A DNA stretch of 64,000 bases from an uncultured delta proteobacterium (GCA_963745035.1 CAVUVW010000013.1:1902398-1966397); one strand, 5' to 3'; positions 34,994-60,020 are shown, counted from the stretch's first letter. Made by a program: numbers and translations. The notes: generated by a model not told the origin, from the letters alone.

Positions 34994-35192
34994 CCTCTGA
35001 ATCGGTTTTCATTGAATTTTGGCTTCCCCTCATAACGACTCGCGAAAAGTCATCTGCGTCCTCGGCCACTCAATATCGCTGGTCCCGTACTTCAAATTGA
35101 TGGTCTTGCGGTGAGTTAGCTTCCCGTTCAGCATGATTCCGGCCTCAAGGTCGATGGTGCCGACGTAAATCCAGTTGCTCGCCTGATAATCG

Positions 35193-41090: not shown

Positions 41091-41867
41091 GGTCGGTCTC
41101 GGCCTCGACAGTCACATCTTCGAGTTCGATTTTTTCTTCGCGCATGAAGGTTACACACGTCCTGCAGTCGGGCTGGCTATTTTCGTTCTAGCGATCTTGT
41201 AGCAACAAGTCTTCGCCAGTTTTAATCGCCTGATACAACGTGCCCAGCCGGATGATTTGTGCGATGAGCTCGGTGCGGGTCGCCTGACTATCTTTAAGCC
41301 GCCCGAGCTCTGCGGCTAGGGTATCCATCAGCTTGTCGACCAATTCCAATTGTTCTTTTGTGTCCGTGGCTTCACCCCGCTCTAATGACTTTGGTCATTC
41401 GCACGACTAGTTTAAGAGCGAGCGCCTTCCCCCGAATCACCAGTCACGCCATCTGATAATTACAAACCACGCACGTCCGTTCACCGCTTGTACACGCACA
41501 TTCTTCGCCGGCTCACGCACCGTGATTCCGACGTATCCGCCGCAACGCGGTCATGCTCCGGCGAGATAGCGGCCATAGCTCAGGCGTACAGGTAAACCGT
41601 CCAGGTACACACCGAAACCGTTGCGATAGTGAGCCAGAAAAGGCCTCGACGATAGGGCATTGTCCACCTCCAGAATTACGCGGAGACATAGCGCGTTTGA
41701 GTGAGACAGGTCAACCAACCAGCTCGAAAGGGGCCCTTTCACTCAAGCAATATTATGACAGGCTGTATTTAGTGAGCACGAAGAAGCAGTCGAGTTGAAG
41801 GCTGTTCGAGCGAAAGGGTTGCCCATACATGTTCGTTTAAGGAGGCCGCAATAATAGGAGATTCGAT

Positions 41868-42866
41868 ATGCGAAACCTCATTCGAGCTATCGGTCTTATA
41901 TCGGTCTTATTCTACTTCCCTGACATGGGTACAGGGGCTCCGTTTGCCTACATCACAAACCTAGAGGACAACACCGTCTCGGTTATCGACACGGCTTCGA
42001 ATGATGTGAAGACGGTGCAGGTGGGAACTCGCCCTAAAGGAGTTGCGGTACACCCCGATGGGAGCCGTGTCTACGTAGCAAATTCCATCGACCATACCGT
42101 CTCTGTGATCAACACAGCTTCGAATACTGCGATAGCAGCGGTCGCAGTTGGGAATTCCCCTGAGGGTGTGGCGGTAAACGCTGATGGGAGCCGTGCCTAC
42201 GTGACAAGCAACGGCGATAGCACCGTCTCTGTCATCGATACGGCTTCAAACACTGTGATAGCAAGAGTAGTGGTGGGAAGGTTCCCTTTAGGCGCGGCGA
42301 TACAACCTAATGGGAGCCGTGTCTATGTGGCAAACGCGATGGACAACACTGTCTCTGTCATCAATACGGCCTCAAACACTGTGATAGCGACGGTGCCGGT
42401 GGAGAGTTTCCCTTACGGCGCGGCTGTACACTCTGATGGGAGCCGTGTCTATGTGACAAATAGGAACAGCAACACCATGTCGATTATCAACACGGCTTCG
42501 AATACAGTTGTGGGAACCGTGGAGGTAGGAGTTTGGCCCATTGGAGTTGCGGTACACGGTAGCGGGAGCCGTGTCTACGTGACAAACTCCCTCGACAACA
42601 CCCTCTCGGTTATAGACACGGCTTCGAACACGGTCGTGAGATGGGTGGGAGTGGGAATTAGTCCTGGTGGAGTTGCAGTACACCCTGACGGGAAACTTGT
42701 GTACGTGGCAAACACAGGCTCAAATACCATCACTCTGATCGCCACGGCCCCAAGCTTTCCCCTGGGGACCGTCGCGGTGGGACGTAGGCCTTTCGCGTTC
42801 GGGCATTTCATAGGACCCGGCGTAGTGCCGTCCGCAGCAGCCCCTCAAAGATTGCAGTTGCGGTAG
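41868..42866 (+). CDS. Secreted YVTN/YncE beta-propeller protein
   Basis: Signal peptide and about seven 42-aa repeats (DGSRVYVxN..DNTVSVIDTASN). Confidence 0.9.
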   Translation: MRNLIRAIGLISVLFYFPDMGTGAPFAYITNLEDNTVSVIDTASNDVKTVQVGTRPKGVAVHPDGSRVYVANSIDHTVSVINTASNTAIAAVAVGNSPEGVAVNADGSRAYVTSNGDSTVSVIDTASNTVIARVVVGRFPLGAAIQPNGSRVYVANAMDNTVSVINTASNTVIATVPVESFPYGAAVHSDGSRVYVTNRNSNTMSIINTASNTVVGTVEVGVWPIGVAVHGSGSRVYVTNSLDNTLSVIDTASNTVVRWVGVGISPGGVAVHPDGKLVYVANTGSNTITLIATAPSFPLGTVAVGRRPFAFGHFIGPGVVPSAAAPQRLQLR

Positions 42867-43072
42867 GAAGATCCATCAGCCTACGTGCGATGGCTTCGGT
42901 CGGCTTAAGCGATTCTAATCTCTTGACCGTAATTTGAGATACTCCCTGCGTCAGAAATGAATTTGCATGATTTGGAACGAAGACAATCTTGTAGAATTCG
43001 CATCCAGTGCCCTTGCTAGGGCGCGGTACCGTTGTAGCGCCACTTCAATGATCGTCCCGCATCGATTCAGAG

Positions 43073-43680
43073 CGACACGAGGACTAGTGGTCCTCTTCCC
43101 GCCCCGAACACGGAAGTCAAACCGGGCGCGAAAACGCAAACCCTCATAGAGCAGTTTCCACGCTCGGTCAGGACAATCACCCGCGACGCCGGGAGAACGG
43201 CTCTTTTGCTCCAAAACGTAAACAGCAGCACGGCGCGCATTGCTTAATGCCTTATTTAATCCGAAATACCGGGTGTCGAGGCGCTTCGAGGGCGAAATCT
43301 CTCAGATCAGAATGTACCGTTACGTCAAAGAATGGTCGAACCACTGGAACCTGTGCAAGATACGTTTTCAGGACGGGAGCCGCTTCTTCAGCCGGAAGTT
43401 CCTGGACCTTTACAATCTCAGATCGCCGACCACGTTGCAGCGTGACTTGGCCCGCTGCACGAGCGTTTCTCACCCAACCAACCTCACCGTAGGGCGCGAC
43501 AAGCCAGCGCTGCCGCTCGTGTTCGACGAGTGTCACCGGGGTTGAGTAGGAGCGACCCGTTTTTCTTCCTCTAACCGTTAGGAGATAGGTATGCGGAGGA
43601 CTCATGTCCAGTCGCAACAAGGCGCGGATGATCAAGTTCACTAGCTTGCGCCATGTCCCTAAGTGGTATGCCCAAGCCAT
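43073..43680. repeat. About 600-bp direct repeat, copy 1 (att-like element plus FDOR gene)
   Basis: Aligns to 46946-47536; CDS nearly identical, non-coding part more diverged. Confidence 0.85.
43252..43680 (-). CDS. Deazaflavin (F420)-dependent nitroreductase family protein (FDOR-A/Ddn-like), copy 1
   Basis: LLTVRGRKTG...TPV, WVRNARAAG, HPVFRI. Confidence 0.88.
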   Translation of the reverse strand: MAWAYHLGTWRKLVNLIIRALLRLDMSPPHTYLLTVRGRKTGRSYSTPVTLVEHERQRWLVAPYGEVGWVRNARAAGQVTLQRGRRSEIVKVQELPAEEAAPVLKTYLAQVPVVRPFFDVTVHSDLRDFALEAPRHPVFRIK

Positions 43681-46945: not shown

Positions 46946-47536
46946 CGACACGAGGATTATTGATCCTCTTCCCGCCCCGACCACGGAAGTCAAACCGGGC
47001 GTAGAAAACGCAAGCCTCAATAGAGCAGTTTCCAAAAAATCCGCTACGCCGGTAGAACGGCTCTCTGCCCCAGAAGCGTAGCAGCACGACGCGCACTGCT
47101 TAATGCCTTATTTAATCCGAAATACCGGATGTCGAGGCGCTTCGAGGGCGAAATCTCTCAGATCAGAATGTACCGTTACGTCAAAGAATGGTCGAACCAC
47201 CGGAACCTGAGCAAGATATGTTTTCAAGACGGAAGCCGCTTCTTCAGCCGGAAGTTCCTGGAGCTTTACAGTCTCAGATCGCCGACCACGCTGCAGGGTG
47301 ACTTGCCCCGCTGCACGAGCGTTTCTCACCCAACCAACCTCGCCGTAGGGCGCGACAAGCCAGCGCTGCCGCTCGCGTTCGACGAGTGTCACCGGGGTTG
47401 AGTAGGAGCGACCCGTTTTTCTTCCTCTAACCGTTAGGAGATAGGTATGCGGAGGACTCATGTCCAGTCGCAACAAGGCGCGGACGATCAAGTTCACTAG
47501 CTTGCGCCATGTCCCTAAGTGGTATGCCCAAGCCAT
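46946..47536. repeat. About 600-bp direct repeat, copy 2
   Basis: Aligns to 43073-43680. Confidence 0.85.
47108..47536 (-). CDS. Deazaflavin-dependent nitroreductase family protein, copy 2
   Basis: Differs from copy 1 at about 5 of 142 residues; GGAGG RBS. Confidence 0.88.
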   Translation of the reverse strand: MAWAYHLGTWRKLVNLIVRALLRLDMSPPHTYLLTVRGRKTGRSYSTPVTLVERERQRWLVAPYGEVGWVRNARAAGQVTLQRGRRSETVKLQELPAEEAASVLKTYLAQVPVVRPFFDVTVHSDLRDFALEAPRHPVFRIK

Positions 47537-50026: not shown

Positions 50027-50295
50027 TTATGATCCTCCTTCATGAATATCGTGAATATATTATCGTTACGTCCCAAACTAACAACCCAATGGTGCCCTCC
50101 CTCCACTCGGCTCCATCAGATTATGTAAGTTAGACGCCTATTTGGACGTGCCATTCACCACTATACTGCCACGTTGTCGATATTCCCTTCTGAAGGTCGG
50201 GTCGAAATAGCAGTCTCCGGGGGCCAAATGCAGTCTAGGGGTATTTGTGGGCGGCGGTCCTCGTAGGTAGGCAACAGCAGGGGGCAAACCAAACC

Positions 50296-50560
50296 ACCCG
50301 ACACGAGGACTCTCAATTCTCGTAGCACCTCTAACCAGCAGAGAACAAAGAGGAATTTTATGACTTTGCCATTACTTTGTCGGTCAGAAATTCCATCTAG
50401 AATCGAATAGAATCTCGTCTGACAGATCGAATCGCGCTGTTCACACAGCAAAAACGGCGCTATTCTGTCGTCATGGCAGGGATACGCGGGAAATCCGGGC
50501 CACCAGGCAACCAGAACCGTTTAACACGGTCTGGCTCGCGCAACGCCGGGTAAACGGCGT
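50296..50560 (+). mobile_element. Internally deleted element: tRNA-Phe-derived core, arm repeats and 5' remnant of a terminase-small-like gene
   Basis: ACCCGACACGAGGA-CTCTCAA-TTCTCGT; ACTTTGCC/ACTTTGTC at 50363-50381; MAGIRGKSGPPGNQN..HGL from 50473. Confidence 0.6.
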
Positions 50561-50617
50561 GCTATCGCCAGCAGAGCAGTCCATCCGGGAGGAGCCGTTG
50601 CTGGTGGTCAGGTCACG

Positions 50618-52187: not shown

Positions 52188-52652
52188 ATGTCGATAGCCG
52201 GTAAAAAAGGACACAGCGGACCTCCAGGGAACGCCAATGCTTTCCGACATGGGCTTTCCGCAATCCAGCGCCGCCGCGCCGATGGTGAGCTAACCGACGA
52301 GGAGCAGGATGTCCGGGCCGGGATTCTTGCCGGACTGATTGCCGACAAAGGCGGAAAACAGGCGATCGGCACCGCCGAGCGCATTCTGGCCGAGATCATC
52401 AGCAGCGACGTGTCGCTCTTGGTGACGGTGAATCAAGCCATAGAGGGAGTTCTGAGAAATAATCAGAAAGCGCGAGGGAACCCGAAAGCGTTGACGCAAC
52501 TCGACGGCTATAAGCGCGACCTGGTGAACAGTCTCACCGGTGATCTACAGCGGTTCGGTTTCGAGAAAGCAGCCAAAGCTGAAACGCTTCAGGACATCAT
52601 CGAGGAAATGGGCGATGGTGGCGCCGAGGGGATTCCGACCGGGCACAATTGA
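52188..52652 (+). CDS. Phage/satellite terminase-small-subunit-like hypothetical protein
   Basis: N-terminal GHSGPPGNANAFRHGL resembles the GAPxGNxNAxKHG motif of TerS-type proteins; helical remainder. Confidence 0.5.
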   Translation: MSIAGKKGHSGPPGNANAFRHGLSAIQRRRADGELTDEEQDVRAGILAGLIADKGGKQAIGTAERILAEIISSDVSLLVTVNQAIEGVLRNNQKARGNPKALTQLDGYKRDLVNSLTGDLQRFGFEKAAKAETLQDIIEEMGDGGAEGIPTGHN

Positions 52653-53771: not shown

Positions 53772-54195
53772 TCGTCAAGCTTGTCAACACGTTTCCGATC
53801 GTCGCACTACCAAACGGTCTTTTTGCACCCTGGGCACCGACTGGTAAACCCACACACCGTTACCATCGCAGTCACACGGACAGCGTCGCTCCCCGACAAG
53901 ACAATAAGTTTAAGTATCTGTTGCCGCTGGATGAGAAAGTCACCGAGCGCATCCAAACAGAGACATCGCTGCGCCAGACCTCCAGTCTGGAGAGGCCGGG
54001 GAAGCACCGAGCGCGGCGCTCCAGTGATAAACCACGTCGGATTGAATCGAAGGAAAATTCAGTTCATTAGACCGTTAAAGCGAAAGGCAGCGGTCCTGAG
54101 AAGCCCGGGGCCGCGAGCCTCGCGAATCGGTCCGAAGGTCTTTCTCAAGCCGCTGGAAAGATGCCATCTATCCATGAGAACCGCTTCTGACTCTT

Positions 54196-55857
54196 TCAGC
54201 CCAAATGCCGCGAAAGGCGCAATGCCAGACCCGCGAGAGTGCGGACGGGATTGGCGGCCGTGCTGATTGGCATGACAGACATATCGCAAACATAGAGGCC
54301 GGTGGAGCCTCGGACCTTGAGGGTTTCGTCCACAACCGACTCGTGGTTGAAGCTAGCGTTGCGATTAGGTTTCCAGGGCATCCGCAAGGTGCCGCAGGCA
54401 TGATGCACAGTACCCCAACCGAACGGCCATTGTTTACCGTGACCGCTACCGTATTCACCGGTAATCCAGTCCACATCATTGAACTCCGCGAAAACACGAT
54501 CCCGAGTCTGGTTGAGCAGATCGAAAAAGTCCTGCTGCCCCTTTGTCCATCCTGCGAGCGCAGGAAAGCGGAACTGTAACAGATCATCCAGAAATGCGAA
54601 GCGCTTGAAGCGGATTTCAGGGGTATAACCGTCGCTAGCGTGCGAGAAGATGCCATTCTCATCGTCCAGGCAGTTGGCGAAGCTGAACTTGATATCAACA
54701 CGGGTCTTGCTGGTGTCGTCAATGACAGGTTCGGCGGAAGCATCATTGTTTCGCAGGTGCCAGTATTCGTGATTGACGTTCATCTCTATGTTAAAAGGAA
54801 ACTTAGTATGGCCGTTTTGGTCAGGTCTTCCACGTGAATAGAAAATGATTTTGGCGTGATCCCGACGATTGAGAGAGATACTGCCAAGCGACGAAACATA
54901 AGCCTGTGACTCCGCAGTAACTGGGTGATCCGTCAAGCCAAAGCCTACCCGCTGCTTCAAGTGACCGGGAAGTCTCTGGTAGATTGAGGAACGATTGATC
55001 AGCTTCGGGCTTTCGATTGAGCCGGCGGCAATAACGACCCGTGGTGTGTAAAAGCTGACTTGCTCGCCAGTGATGGTGTTGGTGGTTCTGACTTCGTACC
55101 AATCGAAAGGCACGTCATTGATAGCTTCAACGAAACAGTTGAGCTTAATAAAAAGTCCACTGCCATCTTGATTGACGCCAGGCGTTAATCCCACCTGACT
55201 GATGAGTAGTTCAGCCGTATTGAATACTCCGGTCGGCTCCACAAAGAACTGATCCCGCGGCGTGCCGTCGGGATTAAGATAGGGTTGATGTAGCGCGCGA
55301 GGTGTCTGTTTTATCACAAAATCATCATTCAGGCTGCTATTGCGGAAATGCTGTACCAGGTCTTTGGCCTTTGCTCCGAGAGAGAACGATACGTTCATTC
55401 GATTTGCAGCCAGCTTAAAGTACTCTGATGTCAAATCCTCGCGGACGCTATCCGGGAAGAAATGCAGTTCCCAATCCTGAGCCTGCGGGATCAGGCCGGA
55501 CCAAAATATCGAACGACCGCCAAACGCCAATTGAGGCTTTCCGCCAATGAAATGGTTGCCGGTCGGGTTCTGTGTAAAATTATCAACGTCAAAATGAGCG
55601 GCTATGGAAAAGTTTGGCACCCGGCTAACATTGTAGACATGGGTGGGATAGATAAACGAACCGGCATCCAAAAGTAGAATGCGATGATTCTGTCCTAATC
55701 GGTCCGCCAGATCGTCAGCCAGGATACCGCCGCCCATACCGGAACCGACAATAATGAAGTCAAAGTCTCTGTTAGTACCATCATAGTCTCGGATCAAGCG
55801 GGTATGGGCCTGGGTTTTCTCTGCAACCAGATTCACATAGTTGTTTTGAAATGGCAT
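54196..55857 (-). CDS. GMC family FAD oxidoreductase
   Basis: DFIIVGSGMGG, GGRSIFW, AAGSIESPKL, LTDH, HHACGT, ANPVRT. Confidence 0.88.
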   Translation of the reverse strand: MPFQNNYVNLVAEKTQAHTRLIRDYDGTNRDFDFIIVGSGMGGGILADDLADRLGQNHRILLLDAGSFIYPTHVYNVSRVPNFSIAAHFDVDNFTQNPTGNHFIGGKPQLAFGGRSIFWSGLIPQAQDWELHFFPDSVREDLTSEYFKLAANRMNVSFSLGAKAKDLVQHFRNSSLNDDFVIKQTPRALHQPYLNPDGTPRDQFFVEPTGVFNTAELLISQVGLTPGVNQDGSGLFIKLNCFVEAINDVPFDWYEVRTTNTITGEQVSFYTPRVVIAAGSIESPKLINRSSIYQRLPGHLKQRVGFGLTDHPVTAESQAYVSSLGSISLNRRDHAKIIFYSRGRPDQNGHTKFPFNIEMNVNHEYWHLRNNDASAEPVIDDTSKTRVDIKFSFANCLDDENGIFSHASDGYTPEIRFKRFAFLDDLLQFRFPALAGWTKGQQDFFDLLNQTRDRVFAEFNDVDWITGEYGSGHGKQWPFGWGTVHHACGTLRMPWKPNRNASFNHESVVDETLKVRGSTGLYVCDMSVMPISTAANPVRTLAGLALRLSRHLG

Positions 55858-56718
55858 ATCTGCTCTCCTTGAGCTTCAGTCGCTCGTACTCCAGCCATCA
55901 GAATAACAGTTTGATCGGGCTGTTGGGCGGCTAACGAGATGCCGCTGAGCCGTTATCAAAAGTGAATCATCCATTGCTGAATAGCGCCATCGGCTCGAGC
56001 GGCGGGTTAGATGTCGGAACCTAACATAAGCCGTCCGGCGATGGCAGTAACGAAATCTCGGTCGTTTCGTCCCACCACTGAACACGGTTCGGCGCTCCAG
56101 GTTTGCAAAACGGTTCGATTAATCCAGCAACGTTTGCCCAACTGTGCCGCCGGAAGAACACATTCCCAATTTGATTCCACGCCTCCATCATAACCACCGC
56201 CGTTGCTCCGACCCGTCGGCGACGAGCACCCACTGTCTACCAAGGTGATTTCTTGTCGCTCGTCGAGAACAATCCCGCCCACCTAACCATCCCAGAGATT
56301 GACGACCAGCCGGAGCAAACGAGTGGCGGCTGCGGCGTCCAGGTCATATAGCCGAATCAAAGGACAGTCGAGAGATTCAACTAAGCGATATTCAACGCGC
56401 ATAGGAAGAGACATCTAAGTAATAAAGCTACCGCCTAACCTCCCGGCGGTATATCACGCTTTTCTTTTGATCCTGCAAAAGCGAAACGCCTGAAGTGCCC
56501 CCGGATTGCCAAGATCTTGTCAACGATATTAATTCCGGCAAACGCAATGATCTTGATATTGGCCCACAGTATATCAATGCGAATTGACGACGACGCTCAG
56601 CGCAGGATTGAACTGAACGACGCTTCAGTCTTAGCTGGATGAGAGGGCCAGGCAGCACGGACCGTGGCTCCATTCCCCTGGTTGACAGACGGCTGGTGAC
56701 CGCCGTAGGCTCCTGGCG

Positions 56719-56931
56719 ATGATAAAAGGCTATCAAGGCGATGAACTCTGGACCGCTGTAAATCGAGCGACCGGCAAGCGCGAAATCATCGATCCGGAAG
56801 CGGAATTGATAACGGGCGAAACTATCGTCAAGCTGTATTACTGCAAGCGGCTGGATGGTTATGTGACGATTCCCGGTGCTTCAATTTTCAAGGTTTCACT
56901 AACCGGCGACTCTCTCCAGCCCGCAGACTGA
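56719..56931 (+). CDS. Small hypothetical protein
   Basis: 70-aa ORF with normal globular composition. Confidence 0.4.
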   Translation: MIKGYQGDELWTAVNRATGKREIIDPEAELITGETIVKLYYCKRLDGYVTIPGASIFKVSLTGDSLQPAD

Positions 56932-56939
56932 TCTCTTCC

Positions 56940-57015
56940 GCGCCGCACAAGCAATGACACGTTGCGCCTGGAGTCCATCCAGGAGAGGGTGTGTGAATCC
57001 GACCGTGGCGCTCCG
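56940..57015 (+). ncRNA. Non-canonical tRNA-Gly(TCC)-like cloverleaf
   Basis: GCGCCGC/GTGGCGC acceptor, GCAA-N7-TTGC arm, CCTGG-AGTCCAT-CCAGG arm, TGTGAAT T-like loop, T discriminator followed by CCG; 76 nt. Confidence 0.55.
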
Positions 57016-57087
57016 ACCCGAGAATTACTCTGGCCCAACGATCGTGCTGAGTTGATAAAACACAGCAGAACGCTCGATCAGGGCTCC

Positions 57088-57276
57088 TTAGCGCCCCTCG
57101 ATTATCAAACCAGCACCTGGGCGATACGTGAATGTAGGCGTTGAGGAAGACTTCCGAACTTCTTCCTGTTTGGGTCGGCTTGCCTCCTGTTGCTTCGGTC
57201 GCTCCACGACCTGCGCGCTGCAACCGATGCACGCGGTGAAAAGAAGAATCACGCTTACAGCCGTGAAACGTATCAT
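57088..57276 (-). CDS. Small lipoprotein
   Basis: GGAG RBS; MIRFTAVSVILLFTACIGC lipobox-like signal. Confidence 0.55.
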   Translation of the reverse strand: MIRFTAVSVILLFTACIGCSAQVVERPKQQEASRPKQEEVRKSSSTPTFTYRPGAGLIIEGR

Positions 57277-57291
57277 TTTATCTCCACGTGT

Positions 57292-57325
57292 GAGAGCACA
57301 GTGTGAATCTGACCGCCGCACTCCA
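57292..57325 (+). repeat. Diverged 3' partial copy of the tRNA-like element
   Basis: GAGAG..CAG-TGTGAAT-CTG-ACCGCCGCAC-TCCA. Confidence 0.55.
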
Positions 57326-57479
57326 CTTTGGTTCTCATAGTCATTCCCGTACCGAAGTTCTCGATTGTTGCTGCTTAATACGCCTCGGCCACGAACAATT
57401 CCTGCACTACCTAGAGCGATGAAGCACCGGTGATATACTTGTCCCACACGGATTCATTTTTCCGACGTATGAGGTAGCC

Positions 57480-58157
57480 ATGATTTCGGAGCTTCTCACT
57501 GACCTTAGGGCGTACAAAGAAAATACTCTCGATCCTCATCCGATCTTCACGCGAATCGCCGCCGGTGATTTCACCCGGTTCCACTATCTGGCGTACCTAC
57601 GAGAAACCTATCACCTTGTAAAGCATACTCCCAGATATTTGACGGCTGCGGCAGATCGACTCGCAACAACGGATCAACGGCTTTCCGGGTATTTTCGGCG
57701 GTTCTGTGCAGAGGAGACCGGGCACGAATTGTTGTGCATCAAAGATATTGATGCCCTCGGCGAGAATGTGGACCGCGTATTATCAGGCGAAATGAATCCC
57801 GGCGTATGGGGGATGGTAACCCAGTGCTACTACTGGGCGAGCCACGGCAACCCGGTGGCTCTCTTAGGTGACACATTCGCGACTGAAGAACTGGGCGTTG
57901 CACGCGGTCTAGAGGCAGCGAAGGTTGTTGAGGCAACTCTAGACATTCCGCGTGAGGCAACCAATTTCTTGCAGGTCCATGGGAGCGAAGACGCCGCACA
58001 CCTCAACGCGGCAGCACAGGCGATTGAATGGTATGCGGATAATAGCAATCAGGTTTCAGACATACGTTATGCCACAAAGATGACCTATAGGAACTACGGA
58101 CAGCTATTCACAGACGTTTTGGAGTTGGGTGACTTTTGGAGAAAGCGGACGGTGTGA
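57480..58157 (+). CDS. Heme-oxygenase-like iron-containing redox enzyme
   Basis: YLAYLRETYHLVKHT, EETGHE, ATEE, HGSEDAAH. Confidence 0.82.
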   Translation: MISELLTDLRAYKENTLDPHPIFTRIAAGDFTRFHYLAYLRETYHLVKHTPRYLTAAADRLATTDQRLSGYFRRFCAEETGHELLCIKDIDALGENVDRVLSGEMNPGVWGMVTQCYYWASHGNPVALLGDTFATEELGVARGLEAAKVVEATLDIPREATNFLQVHGSEDAAHLNAAAQAIEWYADNSNQVSDIRYATKMTYRNYGQLFTDVLELGDFWRKRTV

Positions 58158-58176
58158 ATCCGACCGTGGCGCTCCA
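58150..58176 (+). repeat. 3' partial copy of the tRNA-like element; supplies the stop codon of the upstream gene
   Basis: CGG-TGTGAAT-CCG-ACCGTGGCGC-TCCA. Confidence 0.75.
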
Positions 58177-58308
58177 TCCCCGTGGGGTTCTGTCCATGAT
58201 GTGCATCCCGGAGGGGGCCGGCAGACGGACCGGGGCGCTCTGAGATTATAGCAATTCAATAGATGGAAAAGTCGATTTTATACACACCGTCCCAGCTAAA
58301 GATTCCCC

Positions 58309-59028
58309 CTACATGTGCGAAAGCGAGGCTTTTAAGGACTCAGAGAGCCCGTATGAAAACATGCCGTCAGCGGAAATGCGCCTTTTGGTTAAAAATCCCT
58401 GCTGAATTAGCGTTTCGAGGCGATAAAAAAGTTCAGGCGATGCATGGGAATGCTGCATAGCTTTTTCGATGTAGCGCTGCGTTACCTCAGCCCCATTCTG
58501 ACATTGCTCCACAATATAGCCGAGTAGTTTTGCCTGCCCTGCGCTAAGTTCATCTCGCATTGCGTTGAGAGACTTGGGACGTGGAACCTCCAATTGCAAG
58601 GAGGAGTAGCTCTCAACGACGAGCTGAAACAGTTTCTCGGTCGCTTTTCTGGCCAGCGATTCGATTGATGCACGCCCGTAATCGGCTAGTCGCAGGAAAA
58701 CTCGCTGTGAAAGTTCGGGCGGCAGGTCTTCCGCGACAGCTTCGGGCAGTAGCACAGGAAGGACGAAAATCCTTTTTAACTCGCGCTCGCGTTGTATCGC
58801 CCATGCAAGCTCCTGGCGCACCCATGTAGACCGCAGGGCATCCTTGTCCAGGAAGATCACAAGAAAATCGACGCCGGACTGAATCGTTGACCGCAACTCC
58901 GTCTCTAAGGAGATGCCCCACGTTAGGCTCTCGTCATCCAGCCACGGGTTGAGGAATGACGGTAATAATTTTTTGAAATCATTGACGAGCGGTTTGTCCC
59001 TGCTTCGATGCGAAAGGAAAATCTTCAT
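58309..59028 (-). CDS. TIR domain protein with C-terminal winged helix
   Basis: MKIFLSHRSRDK, PWLD, STWVRQEL (catalytic Glu); C-terminal LSAGQAKLL...ELFYRLETLIQQGFL....Y.LS. Confidence 0.85.
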   Translation of the reverse strand: MKIFLSHRSRDKPLVNDFKKLLPSFLNPWLDDESLTWGISLETELRSTIQSGVDFLVIFLDKDALRSTWVRQELAWAIQRERELKRIFVLPVLLPEAVAEDLPPELSQRVFLRLADYGRASIESLARKATEKLFQLVVESYSSLQLEVPRPKSLNAMRDELSAGQAKLLGYIVEQCQNGAEVTQRYIEKAMQHSHASPELFYRLETLIQQGFLTKRRISADGMFSYGLSESLKASLSHM

Positions 59029-59096
59029 TGAGACATGATTTCTTTCAAACAAAGACTGCTTCTCCTAGCTATTTGAAGCCATCTCACCGAGCTGAA

Positions 59097-59124
59097 ATTA
59101 TGGTTTTCATCGACCGCTTGTCAA
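59097..59124 (-). promoter_or_regulatory. sigma70 promoter of the TIR gene
   Basis: TTGACA-16 bp-CATAAT on the minus strand. Confidence 0.6.
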
Positions 59125-59138
59125 CCGGCTTTTCAAGA

Positions 59139-59197
59139 ACGTTGCGCCTGGAGTCCATCCAGGAGAGGGCGGTGTGATTCCGACCCGTGGCGCCCCA
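59139..59197 (+). repeat. Long 3' partial copy of the tRNA-like element
   Basis: ACGTTGCGCCTGGAGTCCATCCAGGAGAGGG identical to 56959-56989, then CGGTGTGATTCCGACCCGTGGCGCCCCA. Confidence 0.85.
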
Positions 59198-59354
59198 CCC
59201 ATCCTCGCGATCGAGAAGAGGTTCTAATCACAGAGAACATCTTTGCGATTCCATACAAATCCAAGCTCCGCAGACTGAAGCTCTAGATCGCACAACTTGC
59301 GCTGTTATGCTTTCATTATGAGCCGGAACCGCGCTCATCTGAAGTAAAGATACT

Positions 59355-59609
59355 ATGCCGGTCTATGACGTCGTTTTTCATTGCGAGGATTGTGACGGTG
59401 AGCATCCGCTCCTGATGAGACTTTATCTAATAGACATTGTGGAACGGAAGCAAAGCGTTGCAGAGCTGTTTCGCGGTCGCGTGGCACCTCCACAGGTCTC
59501 TGCGCTCAGGAATCATACCGCGTTGTGCCTTAAAACAGGAAAAAAGTTCAAACTGGATGCAGACGAAAGAATCTTTCTTATTCCGGCCTCACCTTTCCAG
59601 CCACCATGA
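59355..59609 (+). CDS. Small putative Zn-binding hypothetical protein
   Basis: CEDCDGEH...CLKTG...IFLIP. Confidence 0.65.
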   Translation: MPVYDVVFHCEDCDGEHPLLMRLYLIDIVERKQSVAELFRGRVAPPQVSALRNHTALCLKTGKKFKLDADERIFLIPASPFQPP

Positions 59610-60020
59610 GATCGACTGGTTATCACATAAGGGTATTTCCATGGCGCTACATAGCCGAGTTCTCCAGATGATCACAAACCAACAATGGCTGGAGACCTTG
59701 CAGCCTATTACATCTGGAAAAATGACGGCGAACCACAGGGGCGTGATGCTTATTACTGGGAAAGAGCCAAAGCTGAACTAATGCAGCTCCAAAAGGAGGG
59801 AAATCTCCCACGGCACCGGACCCGTTAGACGAGGAGCGTTAACAATCCCACACGTTAATTGATTAATTTGGGGCTACGGATGGCTTAGAAAGCCGCGGCC
59901 GGATACAAGCGTTCCCGTCCCAGCCGTTTTTCTCCCTGATTCGTGGAGGGATGATCGATCAAAAACTTCGCTTCCTCTTTGGTGATAAGCCCGTGCATCA
60001 TCCGCGCTTCGATCTTATTC

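What the first reader, a model, noticed from the sequence alone, without database searches (positions are those of the whole stretch)
56940..59197. Tandem single-gene cassettes bounded by 3' copies of the tRNA-like element
Seen: the full element is followed by co-oriented 3' fragments ending in CCA at 57325, 58176 and 59197. They define units of about 0.31, 0.85 and 1.02 kb, each with exactly one gene (lipoprotein, HO-like diiron enzyme, TIR-wHTH) in mixed orientations. The diiron gene's stop codon lies inside the repeat, and the TIR unit carries its own sigma70 promoter. Established: a full tRNA followed by 3' duplicates is the footprint of integration, normally by multi-kb islands encoding an integrase. 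Inference: an integron-like minimal gene-capture array using a tRNA mimic as the recombination site, possibly collecting defence genes. This is the best candidate for an undescribed system in the window.
Basis: partly seen in the sequence, partly recalled or inferred. Interest (0 to 1): 0.8.

Follow-up and report, generated by a model that had tools for sequence, protein, structure and literature searches.

The report
Relics of a mom-linked glycine tRNA mimic
The repeats are whole and cut-down copies of a glycine-tRNA look-alike that normally sits at the end of a phage DNA-modification gene (mom), and the small genes between them look like the debris of decayed mobile elements, not a working gene-capture machine.

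Summary
The repeats are real and exceed chance, but the array is larger than reported: seven co-oriented copies lie between 53.95 and 59.2 kb.

The element is a 76-nt cloverleaf. ARAGORN and Rfam do not call it. Compensatory changes support all four stems.

In soil metagenomes (at least 120 contigs), 14 viral contigs and three cultured phages, the same or a related glycine tRNA (anticodon UCC) sits at or overlaps the 3' end of a Mom-family gene.

The published determinants for glycyl-tRNA synthetase (G1:C72, C2:G71, C35, C36, U73) are kept. U33 and the usual T-loop are not.

Published biochemistry (2023 preprint, 2026 paper) shows that Mom transfers glycine from Gly-tRNAGly to adenine in DNA. 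The element is therefore best read as a glycine-donor tRNA carried by the mobile element itself.

The window holds only relics. One copy still follows a mom 3' remnant, and the single intact mom gene is on another contig.

Copies keep their 3' end and lose their 5' end, and arrays are mostly co-oriented, so recombination at the element is plausible. However, I found no recombinase, no attC cores and no excision variant. The integron-like capture reading is not shown.

The mom-tRNA linkage did not turn up in my literature searches.

The parts
52188..52652 (+). TerS-like gene (motif GNxNAFRHG) of the same family that opens the intact mom-bearing modules
   Evidence: tblastn with the L069 protein: 66% identity over 139 aa. 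The intact modules are seen in L135 and L069. A conserved ~300-nt leader lies at 50277-50593 and recurs on at least 6 other contigs.
53900..53947 (+). 3' remnant of a mom gene (reads ...KFKYLLPLDEKVTERI)
   Evidence: Direct comparison with the intact Mom-tRNA-like locus on contig C17.
53948..54023 (+). tRNA-Gly-like copy, subfamily 3; the 5' acceptor strand is lost through a small deletion
   Evidence: nhmmer E 2.4e-07, model positions 7-76. It is 87% identical to C17:2918-2806. Aligned in A2.
54040..54070 (+). Degenerate copy of the hairpin that follows the tRNA-like gene in most full copies (loop GGAGAA-like)
   Evidence: Read.
54196..55857 (-). GMC-family oxidoreductase gene between copies 1 and 2
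   Evidence: PF05199, E 1.1e-12.
56641..56680 (+). 3' part of a subfamily-2 copy
   Evidence: nhmmer E 7.8e-4, model positions 43-74. The same layout (subfamily-2 copy, then the 70-aa gene) is seen in L057, L116, L145 and L143.
56719..56931 (+). 70-aa gene of unknown function that recurs just after or just before tRNA-like copies
   Evidence: It is upstream of 9 of 88 metagenome copies and downstream of copies in L057, L116, L145, L143 and L086. There is no Pfam, NCBIfam, PHROG or Atlas match.
56940..57016 (+). Copy A: full cloverleaf of subfamily 1, with a 1-nt deletion in the T arm; ends CCG, not CCA
   Evidence: nhmmer E 5.3e-17. MFE fold is a cloverleaf, -32.5 kcal/mol, z -1.98. Aligned in A2.
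57088..57276 (-). 62-aa lipoprotein-like ORF
   Evidence: ORF list and lipobox-like LFTAC read. It is duplicated, together with copy B, on C26.
57292..57325 (+). Copy B: T arm plus 3' acceptor strand only, degenerate
   Evidence: the repeat finder 69%. nhmmer E 0.31. Paralogue at C26:90641-90674.
57480..58157 (+). Haem_oxygenas_2 (iron-containing redox enzyme) gene; its last ~6 codons and its stop come from copy C
   Evidence: PF14518, E 2.9e-16. The sequence was read. Mom ORFs of subfamily 1 use the same TGA in the T loop.
58144..58176 (+). Copy C: T arm plus 3' acceptor strand, ends CTCCA
   Evidence: nhmmer E 3.3e-06, model positions 44-76.
58199..58243 (+). Copy C2: 3' part of a subfamily-2 copy, 22 nt after copy C, followed by a degenerate downstream hairpin
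   Evidence: nhmmer E 1.3e-3, model positions 31-74. Read.
58309..59031 (-). TIR-domain gene with its own promoter-like site at 59124-59097
   Evidence: PF13676, E 8.9e-15. Promoter-like site matches 11 of 12. The C-terminal MarR_2 hit is only E 0.052.
59135..59197 (+). Copy D: model positions 15-76 of subfamily 1; lacks the 5' acceptor strand, has 1 extra C, ends CCCCA
   Evidence: nhmmer E 4.8e-16.
59200..59626 (+). Block holding an 84-aa ORF (59355-59609), duplicated at C1:6008-5584; the homology starts right at the 3' end of copy D
   Evidence: blastn 94% over 430 nt. Junction read. No recognisable copy precedes it on C1.
35051..35188 (-). Isolated mom fragment (Mom residues 124-169) elsewhere in the window
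   Evidence: tblastn 72% over 46 aa, E 6e-16.

Best explanation
The repeat is a 76-nt tRNA-Gly(UCC) mimic carried by mobile elements. In intact form it overlaps the 3' end of a Mom-family gene, within a module TerS-like / HTH_17 / TerL / ParB-like / Mom.

Mom is known to take glycine from Gly-tRNAGly and put it on N6 of adenine in DNA. The most likely function of the element is therefore an RNA. It would be transcribed with or just after mom, charged by the host glycyl-tRNA synthetase, and used by Mom as its own glycine donor.

Its derived shape is a 7+6 bp acceptor/T helix, with no conserved U33 and no usual T and D loops. This suggests that it is kept out of translation.

The window's 53.95-59.2 kb stretch is not a working system. 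It holds seven co-oriented, mostly 5'-truncated relics of such element ends, one still attached to a mom remnant. Unrelated small genes (GMC oxidoreductase, 70-aa gene, lipoprotein, HO-like enzyme, TIR) are trapped between them.

The array most likely grew by repeated arrival of mom-bearing elements at the same spot, then deletion and recombination that used the conserved copies as homology.

Shown: the family, its fold, its link to mom, the kept glycine determinants, the arrays, the intact 3' ends and variable 5' ends, and the lack of a nearby recombinase.

Inferred: transcription, charging, use by Mom, insulation from translation, and the way the array formed.
For: Fold.
- On 43 full copies (42 distinct) the cloverleaf pairs 88.2% of cells, against 33-45% when partners are slid.
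- 55 cells carry changes on both sides, against 18.9 +/- 3.5 in shuffles (0 of 500 reach it).
- 7 of 22 pairs, spread over all four stems, have changes on both sides.
- Three subfamilies differ in the D, anticodon and T stems by compensatory changes. These changes alter the overlapping peptide completely (LESIQ against QTASL), so selection acts on the fold and not on the protein.

Glycine identity.
- C35, C36 and U73 are invariant.
- G1:C72 is kept in 36 of 42 copies and C2:G71 in 38 of 42. Positions 33 and 34 vary.
- C35 and C36 were not fixed by my search pattern.
- These are the published eubacterial determinants. Loop sequences matter little for GlyRS (PMC10464925: abstract and passages).

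Link to Mom.
- The ORF that ends in the element is Mom: PF25680 E 2.6e-47, phrog_1384 E 2.7e-50.
- blastx labelled 47 of 88 metagenome copies with one of the two Mom classes upstream. About 31 of these extend beyond the tail that the element itself encodes (my reading of the rows).
- All 14 viral contigs picked only by Mom similarity (39-55% identity) have a tRNA or tRNA-like sequence at the Mom 3' end. ARAGORN calls four of them tRNA-Gly(tcc).
- Three cultured phages show the same. Salinibacter phage B2_17 and Microbacterium phage Phonegingi have an annotated tRNA-Gly next to the Mom homologue. Arthrobacter phage JKerns has an unannotated one.

Biochemistry. Mom uses Gly-tRNAGly (PMC13219725: abstract and passages; bioRxiv 10.1101/2023.03.24.534169: search listing and one passage).

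Relic status.
- The genome has one intact Mom, at C17:2926-3516, followed by a subfamily-3 copy. There is no TerL anywhere in the genome.
- The 53.95-kb copy follows a mom remnant.
- In L104, three of five co-oriented copies follow mom remnants.
Against: - Copies A to D have no mom remnant next to them. Their neighbours are other genes, and two of these (the 70-aa gene and the diiron gene) end at or inside the copy just as mom does. That looks more like a cassette rule than like random decay.
- Of 97 copies not cut by a contig end, 87 keep the exact 3' end, while the 5' start ranges from position 1 to 45. Nine of 12 multi-copy sources are fully co-oriented. This one-sidedness calls for a directional process that plain decay does not supply.
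- Hybrid copies exist, with a subfamily-2 D arm and a subfamily-1 T arm (L058, L131). One duplicated block starts exactly at a copy's 3' end. Both point to recombination at the element.
- No data show that the RNA is made, processed or charged. The one RNA-library run laid consists of contigs and cannot show it.
- Phage Mu Mom works with host tRNA-Gly, so a dedicated tRNA is not required.
- Three distant Mom homologues (27-29% identity; Listeria LP-026, Salmonella FSL SP-038, Yersinia vB_YpM_23) have no tRNA within 500 nt.
- My metagenome pattern fixed positions 42-50 and 62-76, so their invariance is by construction.
Confidence: 0.6

Rival explanations
1. The tRNA-like DNA is itself an attachment or recombination site. 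Small units are added one after another at a resident copy by a recombinase acting in trans. Each event leaves a 3' partial copy, as in island accretion at tRNA genes (tycheposon-like) or, more loosely, as in integrons.
For: - All seven copies in the window are co-oriented.
- Nine of 12 multi-copy sources are fully co-oriented, including five copies in L104 and three in L141.
- The 3' end is intact in 87 of 97 copies, with variable 5' loss.
- Several independent truncated copies start near positions 41-45: window copy C, L063/L076, L093/L077 and a second G018 locus (L048).
- Hybrid D-arm/T-arm copies exist.
- The block at 59200-59626 starts at the end of copy D.
- Two copies are fused head to tail with nothing between them at C14:73075-73151, and copies C and C2 lie 22 nt apart.
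- Gene content between copies differs between genomes.
- ORFs run into the copy, as some integron cassettes run into attC.
Against: - No tyrosine recombinase lies on the 1.97-Mb contig or within 20 kb of any copy in this genome.
- No integrase-like ORF stood out among the ORFs listed around copies in the contigs inspected. Only L135 and L069 were scanned with Pfam and PHROGs; L101, L076, L100, L110, L104, L116 and L145 were judged from the ORF translations alone.
- The 5' starts are spread over positions 4-45, with only a mild peak at 14-15 (10 of 97). There is no single crossover.
- In L069 the intact module is not flanked by a second copy.
- The lipoprotein unit and part of the diiron gene are duplicated as one block that ends in the middle of the gene.
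- No contig from three DNA runs of three studies bridges two copies with a unit missing. The joints seen are explained by paralogous loci on C1 and C14.
- The target is not a host tRNA gene.
Confidence: 0.25
2. The element is an RNA-level 3' module that serves whichever gene lies upstream, independent of Mom. For example, it could be a tRNA-like processing or stabilising signal cut by RNase P or RNase Z.
For: Four unrelated co-oriented genes end at or inside a copy: two Mom classes, the 70-aa gene and the diiron gene. The fold is under selection. CCA is encoded in most copies.
Against: The kept features are precisely the GlyRS determinants, including C35 and C36 in the loop. A processing signal does not need these. 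Linkage to Mom holds across 39-55% protein identity and several phyla of hosts. Many copies follow opposite-strand genes or no gene at all.
Confidence: 0.08
3. This is a classical integron cassette array (a cluster of attC sites without an integrase) served by the genome's IntI.
For: The genome encodes a full integron integrase: TIGR02249, 445 bits against a cut-off of 265, at C6:42134-43036. The region consists of small ORFs, mostly without family matches.
Against: My regex scan found no RYYYAAC...GTTRRRY pair 45-150 nt apart on either strand of 50-64 kb. The element folds as a cloverleaf, not as one imperfect hairpin. The nearest copy to IntI is 36 kb away on C6. The same element is tied to mom in phages. 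IntegronFinder itself could not be run.
Confidence: 0.02

Closest known systems
Mom of phage Mu: tRNA-dependent DNA aminoacyl-transferase (PMC13219725; bioRxiv 10.1101/2023.03.24.534169)
   Same: The gene that carries the element at its 3' end is a Mom-family member (PF25680). Mom takes glycine from Gly-tRNAGly. The element keeps the determinants that GlyRS reads.
   Different: Mu uses host tRNA-Gly. The main-text passages I searched mention no tRNA gene linked to mom: 0 hits for 'tRNA-like', 'adjacent', 'neighborhood', 'downstream of' and 'phage-encoded tRNA'. I could not see the supplements. Here the tRNA is embedded in the mom ORF and is structurally derived.
Phage-encoded tRNA genes
   Same: In some relatives the mom-linked gene is an ordinary-looking tRNA-Gly(tcc). 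ARAGORN calls it in L199, L200, L204, L205 and in phage Phonegingi.
   Different: Phage tRNAs are usually explained by codon usage (recalled). These ones sit at one fixed place next to mom. In the soil lineage they have lost the features needed for decoding: U33 is variable and there is no usual T loop.
Non-proteinogenic tRNA-Gly of staphylococci, which feed Fem transferases for cell-wall bridges (recalled, not checked here)
   Same: A glycine tRNA set aside for a GNAT-fold-related transferase instead of the ribosome, with altered T-arm features.
   Different: The acceptor is DNA, not peptidoglycan. The gene is on a mobile element and overlaps the enzyme's ORF. Insulation from EF-Tu is only inferred here.
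Tycheposons and other islands that accrete at tRNA genes (bioRxiv 10.1101/2020.12.28.424599: abstract and passages)
   Same: [quoted passage not shown] Degenerated remnants and further partial tRNAs are scattered in the island. Some elements are PICI-like and carry terS and xis.
   Different: Tycheposons carry a tyrosine recombinase and target genuine host tRNA genes. Here I found no recombinase. The 'tRNA' belongs to the mobile element. Units are as small as 0.3-1 kb.
Integron cassette arrays (attC sites with IntI)
   Same: One small gene per unit. A structured repeat lies at the unit's end. Some ORFs run into the repeat. The structure is kept while the sequence varies between subfamilies.
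   Different: There are no R''/R' cores, the fold is a cloverleaf and not a hairpin, IntI is not adjacent, and gene orientations are mixed.

Membership tests
Canonical tRNA gene | Detected by tRNA gene finders or the Rfam tRNA model | tested here: not met
   ARAGORN finds only tRNA-Gln and tRNA-Arg at 11-13 kb. Rfam gives no tRNA hit at 56.7-59.4 kb even at E<=10, and none in seven related loci at E<=1.
Canonical tRNA gene | Cloverleaf with four stems supported by covariation; about 76 nt | tested here: met
   88.2% of cells are paired, against 33-45% for slid controls. 7 of 22 pairs have changes on both sides. Length is 76 nt.
Canonical tRNA gene | Invariant U33, the G18G19 / T54-Psi55-C56 elbow, and a 7+5 bp acceptor/T helix | tested here: not met
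   Position 33 is G, T, A or C. The T loops read TGTGAAT or GGCAGCA. The T stem has 6 bp with a fixed G.A mismatch, which makes a 7+6 helix. The list of canonical invariants is recalled.
tRNA-Gly identity (substrate of bacterial GlyRS) | G1:C72, C2:G71, C35, C36, U73 (PMC10464925) | tested here: met
   In alignment A2, C35, C36 and T73 are invariant, G1:C72 is kept in 36 of 42 copies and C2:G71 in 38 of 42. Thirteen distinct Mom-linked sequences were picked by protein only. In nine of them my script found a GCG...CGC acceptor, CC at loop positions 4-5 and N73 = T. I parsed the other four by eye; three have T73 and one (L202) has A73. Actual charging was not tested.
Mom-linked tRNA-Gly (the class proposed here) | Lies at or overlaps the 3' end of a Mom-family gene | tested here: met
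   Met for the family and for the window copy at 53948-54023, which follows a mom remnant. Not met for copies A, B, C, C2 and D, whose neighbours are other genes.
Integron (attC array with IntI) | IntI with attI next to the array | tested here: not met
   IntI is at C6:42134-43036. The array is at the end of contig C13. The nearest copy on C6 is 36 kb from IntI.
Integron (attC array with IntI) | attC with RYYYAAC / GTTRRRY cores and a single imperfect hairpin | tested here: not met
   The regex scan of 50-64 kb found 0 candidates. The element's ends read GCGCC.C / G.GGCGC, and it folds as a cloverleaf. IntegronFinder was not available.
Islands that accrete at tRNA genes (tycheposon-like) | A full tRNA at one end and co-oriented partial 3' copies between units | tested here: met
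   Seven co-oriented copies. Copy A is full. Copies B, C and C2 are 3' parts.
Islands that accrete at tRNA genes (tycheposon-like) | An element-encoded integrase specific for that tRNA, or fragments of one | tested here: not met
   There is no PF00589 match on C13 at E<=0.001. No integrase-like ORF stood out among the ORFs listed around copies in the nine contigs inspected. Only L135 and L069 of these were scanned against Pfam and PHROGs.
Islands that accrete at tRNA genes (tycheposon-like) | Excised or empty forms exist in populations | tested here: inconclusive
   Contigs of three DNA runs show no unit-less form. The joints seen match paralogous loci. Contigs drop rare variants, and raw reads were not available.

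The most novel reading that the evidence does not exclude
Mom-bearing mobile elements of soil bacteria carry an orthogonal glycine tRNA. GlyRS charges it because the five determinants are kept. The ribosome and EF-Tu ignore it because of the 13-bp acceptor/T helix, the lack of U33 and the lack of the usual elbow. Activated glycine is thus channelled only to Mom for DNA hypermodification. The same 76-nt sequence also acts as a one-ended recombination anchor. It builds co-oriented arrays and traps single genes, among them defence genes such as the TIR protein.
Probability: 0.25. Interest if true: 0.8.

Novelty: new variant of a known kind. Interest (0 to 1): 0.6.

Why it matters
Mom's chemistry stayed a puzzle for decades. 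It was only recently shown to use charged tRNA-Gly.

A glycine tRNA, or a tRNA mimic, is physically built into the end of mom genes. This holds in soil elements, in viral contigs and in cultured phages of Salinibacter, Arthrobacter and Microbacterium. It is independent genomic support for that chemistry.

It also offers natural examples of a tRNA that may have been taken out of translation to feed a DNA-modifying enzyme. Such tRNAs could serve as orthogonal parts and as markers for finding Mom-type modification systems.

For genome annotation, it explains a class of 'tRNA-like' repeats and partial copies in soil MAGs that tRNA finders miss.

How the co-oriented arrays of relics form is still open. 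If a recombinase is found, this would be a new route of gene accretion.

Tried and rejected
- Rfam at gathering and at E-value thresholds: no family. Only chance-level hits appeared (SNORD37, P9, sucC).
- ARAGORN on the window, on soil loci and on phage B2_17: no call at the element.
- First HMM built from five copies: it missed subfamily 3. I replaced it with a 43-copy HMM.
- Integron route: IntI exists but is not linked to the copies. The attC regex found nothing in the window. It found one plausible attC at C6:34636-34695.
- Tyrosine recombinases: 20 matches in the genome, none on C13.
- Left end of the intact module in L069: no second copy of the element.
- Read laying on three DNA runs and one RNA-library run. 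There was no joint that removes a unit.
  - The joints 54026>59151 and 56627>56959 match the paralogous loci on C14 and C1.
  - The RNA-library run gave 150-416-nt contigs over parts of the stretch. These cannot show transcription, ends or strand.
- The 70-aa protein: no Pfam, NCBIfam or PHROG match and no usable Atlas hit.
- A cobalamin-riboswitch resemblance of the T arm and a dif/Xer-site idea: I considered both from memory and dropped them. Rfam found nothing, and the sequence is unlike dif.
- A reverse-transcription (5'-truncation) idea and a rolling-circle idea: no RT or HUH gene appeared in the modules, so I did not pursue them.
- One search failed on a mistyped coordinate. I repeated it without that ORF.
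- Of the 13 genome-contig hits, I set aside L059 and L067 as chance matches inside GC-rich coding sequence.


Full report
**The observation**

The window is the last 64 kb of a 1.97-Mb contig in a 7.4-Mb, 28-contig genome. Direct repeats on the + strand end at 57325, 58176 and 59197, as reported, and a fuller copy lies at 56940-57016. The 24-nt and 31-nt cores each occur twice, against none in 100 shuffles.

The three intervals hold one gene each:
- a 62-aa lipoprotein-like ORF on the - strand;
- a Haem_oxygenas_2 gene on the + strand, whose TGA stop lies inside the repeat;
- a TIR_2 gene on the - strand, with an 11-of-12 promoter-like site upstream.

A profile built from 43 full copies finds seven copies in the window, all on the + strand: 53954-54023, 56641-56670, 56946-57014, 57292-57325 (weak, E 0.31), 58144-58176, 58199-58240 and 59135-59197.

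**What the repeat is**

ARAGORN and Rfam do not call it. Copy A nonetheless folds as a cloverleaf.

The element occurs at 13 places in this genome and in 10 of 90 genomes of the same GTDB family, counting this one. It also occurs in 11 credible contigs of a 185,579-species collection. Their record titles name Binatia-type, Pyrinomonadaceae, Blastocatellia, Chloroflexota and Udaeobacter MAGs.

Among 88 distinct metagenome copies, 73 had 48 nt of upstream sequence. Of these, 49 have an intact 7-bp acceptor stem.

Three subfamilies differ by compensatory changes in the D, anticodon and T stems. On 42 distinct full copies the cloverleaf pairs 88.2% of cells, against 33-45% for slid controls. There are 55 double-change cells, against 18.9 +/- 3.5 in shuffles.

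Two cautions apply. The copies fall into a few related groups, so the independent events are few. My search pattern fixed positions 42-50 and 62-76, so their invariance is by construction.

**It is a glycine tRNA mimic**

The element has the length and lay-out of a tRNA: 7-2-4-8-4-1-5-7-5, then a 3-nt variable region, a 6-bp T stem with a fixed G.A mismatch, a 7-nt loop, and the acceptor strand followed by T and CCA.

Positions 35, 36 and 73 are invariant (C, C, T). The first acceptor pairs are G:C and C:G. Position 33 varies freely, and position 34 is U, G, C or A.

G1:C72, C2:G71, C35, C36 and U73 are the published determinants of eubacterial GlyRS, and loop sequences had little effect on charging (PMC10464925: abstract and passages). 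The genome's real tRNA-Gly genes share the GCG...CGC-T-CCA ends but are otherwise unlike the element.

**It belongs to mom**

In most full copies the upstream sequence is coding. The ORF that ends inside the element is a Mom-family protein (PF25680 E 2.6e-47, phrog_1384 E 2.7e-50). In subfamily 1 it uses the same T-loop TGA that stops the window's diiron gene.

blastx labelled 47 of 88 copies with one of two Mom classes upstream. On my reading of the rows, about 31 of these extend beyond the tail encoded by the element itself. Nine copies follow a 70-aa gene instead, five follow TerS-like sequence, and 27 have no match.

Intact modules in L135 and L069 read TerS-like, a zinc-finger-like ORF (named from its cysteine pattern only; no family match), HTH_17, TerL, a 70-aa ORF, ParB-like, and Mom plus the element.

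Fourteen viral contigs chosen only by Mom similarity (39-55% identity) all carry a tRNA or tRNA-like sequence at the Mom 3' end, with a GCG...CGC acceptor. ARAGORN calls four of them tRNA-Gly(tcc), and in the four contigs where I read the downstream ORF a terS-like gene follows.

Cultured phages show the same:
- Salinibacter phage B2_17 has an annotated tRNA-Gly that matches my profile at E 7.9e-11.
- Arthrobacter phage JKerns has an unannotated one.
- Microbacterium phage Phonegingi has ParB-like, acetyltransferase and tRNA-Gly(tcc), the last on the opposite strand.

Three distant Mom homologues (27-29% identity) have none within 500 nt. The link therefore belongs to one branch of the family.

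**Why that makes sense**

Mom was recently shown to transfer glycine from Gly-tRNAGly to N6 of adenine in dsDNA, followed by an on-base rearrangement (PMC13219725: abstract and passages; the 2023 preprint: search listing and one passage).

An earlier paper had ruled out glycyl-adenine as the final product and could not reconstitute the reaction with acetyl-CoA (PMC7261163: passages).

I found no mention of tRNA genes linked to mom in those main texts or in three literature searches. The supplements were closed.

The best reading is that these elements bring their own glycine donor. That the soil version is kept out of translation is my inference, from its 13-bp acceptor/T helix and from the lost U33 and usual elbow.

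**What the window's array is**

This genome has one intact Mom, on contig C17, followed by a subfamily-3 copy. It has no TerL.

In the window, the 53.95-kb copy still follows a mom 3' remnant and is followed by the usual downstream hairpin. A TerS-like gene lies at 52.2 kb, and a mom fragment lies at 35.1 kb on the other strand.

The whole 41-64 kb stretch is a mosaic of segments repeated on contigs C1, C11, C12, C14, C17, C25 and C26.
- The segment 57001-57833 (end of copy A, lipoprotein, copy B, first 350 nt of the diiron gene) is 91% identical to C26. The homology stops in the middle of the gene.
- The segment 59200-59626 is 94% identical to C1. It starts right at the end of copy D.

In metagenome contig L104, five co-oriented copies are interspersed with unrelated genes, and three of them follow mom remnants. 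This is the picture of decayed element ends, not of tidy cassettes.

**What still points to recombination at the element**

Of 97 copies not cut by a contig end, 87 keep the exact 3' end. The 5' start is at position 3 or earlier in 56 copies, at 4-16 in 32 and at 21-45 in 9.

Nine of 12 multi-copy sources are fully co-oriented. Hybrid copies combine the D arm of one subfamily with the T arm of another. Two copies are fused head to tail on C14.

These facts fit accretion at a tRNA-like site, as described for tycheposons. Against this, I found no recombinase near any copy, the break-points are scattered, and there are no attC cores. Contigs from three DNA runs of three studies show no form that lacks a unit. 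The joints seen match paralogous loci.

**Verdict**

My confidence that the element is a mom-linked tRNA-Gly mimic is high, about 0.85. My confidence that the array is a pile of relics and not an active capture system is moderate. The combined statement is given 0.6.

Noticed in passing
G000 contig C6:42134-43036 (-) and C6:34636-34695: A full integron integrase (TIGR02249, 445 bits against a cut-off of 265). A 60-nt GTCTAAC...GTTAGAC palindrome, a plausible attC, lies 7.5 kb away. Look-alikes occur at C14:1057082 and C19:201657.
   Followed up: partly
window 50277-50593; also C1, C14, C17, C25, C26 and L069:1260-1457: A conserved ~200-300-nt leader lies upstream of the TerS-like genes and holds a hairpin (CGAGGA...TCTCG). 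It occurs in at least 7 copies in this genome. It may be the left end or a regulatory RNA of the mom-bearing module.
   Followed up: partly
window 56719-56931; L057, L116, L145, L086, L141, L113, L094, L146: A 70-aa gene (MKKGYQG...KLYYCKRLDGYVT.PG) with its own TTGAC.-N17-TAGG.T site. It recurs just after a tRNA-like copy, and in other contigs just before a full one. It has no family match.
   Followed up: partly
after the CCA in most full copies, e.g. L062, L063, L128 and G000 C17:2806-2848: A conserved hairpin about 20 nt downstream has GGAGAA in its loop. In phage relatives the same GGAGAA stretch is the ribosome-binding site of terS. In soil contigs a convergent ABC substrate-binding gene that ends ...VIK often follows.
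   Followed up: partly
G000 C14:73075-73151: The 3' end of a subfamily-3 copy is fused directly to a subfamily-1 copy that starts at the anticodon arm, with 4 nt between them. This is an 'empty' junction. The same junction is present in contigs of three runs.
   Followed up: partly
G000 C26:90954-91343: Two copies lie head to head, 250 nt apart. This is one of the three exceptions to co-orientation.
   Followed up: no
window 41639-42880 and 43073-43680 / 46946-47536: A 1.2-kb segment is 99% identical to C1:7322-6081 and has internal ~125-nt periodic self-similarity. A 0.6-kb block is duplicated at 91% within the window.
   Followed up: no
G000 C17:177-204 kb, C2:1-26 kb, C14:387-413 kb: Long series of ~1-kb units share a 150-250-nt conserved segment with C6:6.6-6.9 kb. 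This is a large repeated gene or element family unrelated to the finding.
   Followed up: no
L207 (Arthrobacter phage JKerns) 1795-1868: A tRNA-Gly(UCC)-shaped sequence overlaps the end of gene 71 (a Mom homologue). The record does not annotate it, and ARAGORN does not call it.
   Followed up: partly
L135:1548-1874 (-), L069:2941-3396 (-): A cysteine-rich, zinc-finger-like ORF and an HTH_17 (excisionase-like) ORF sit between TerS-like and TerL in the intact modules. No integrase lies in the 5-6 kb module, so how it moves is unknown.
   Followed up: no
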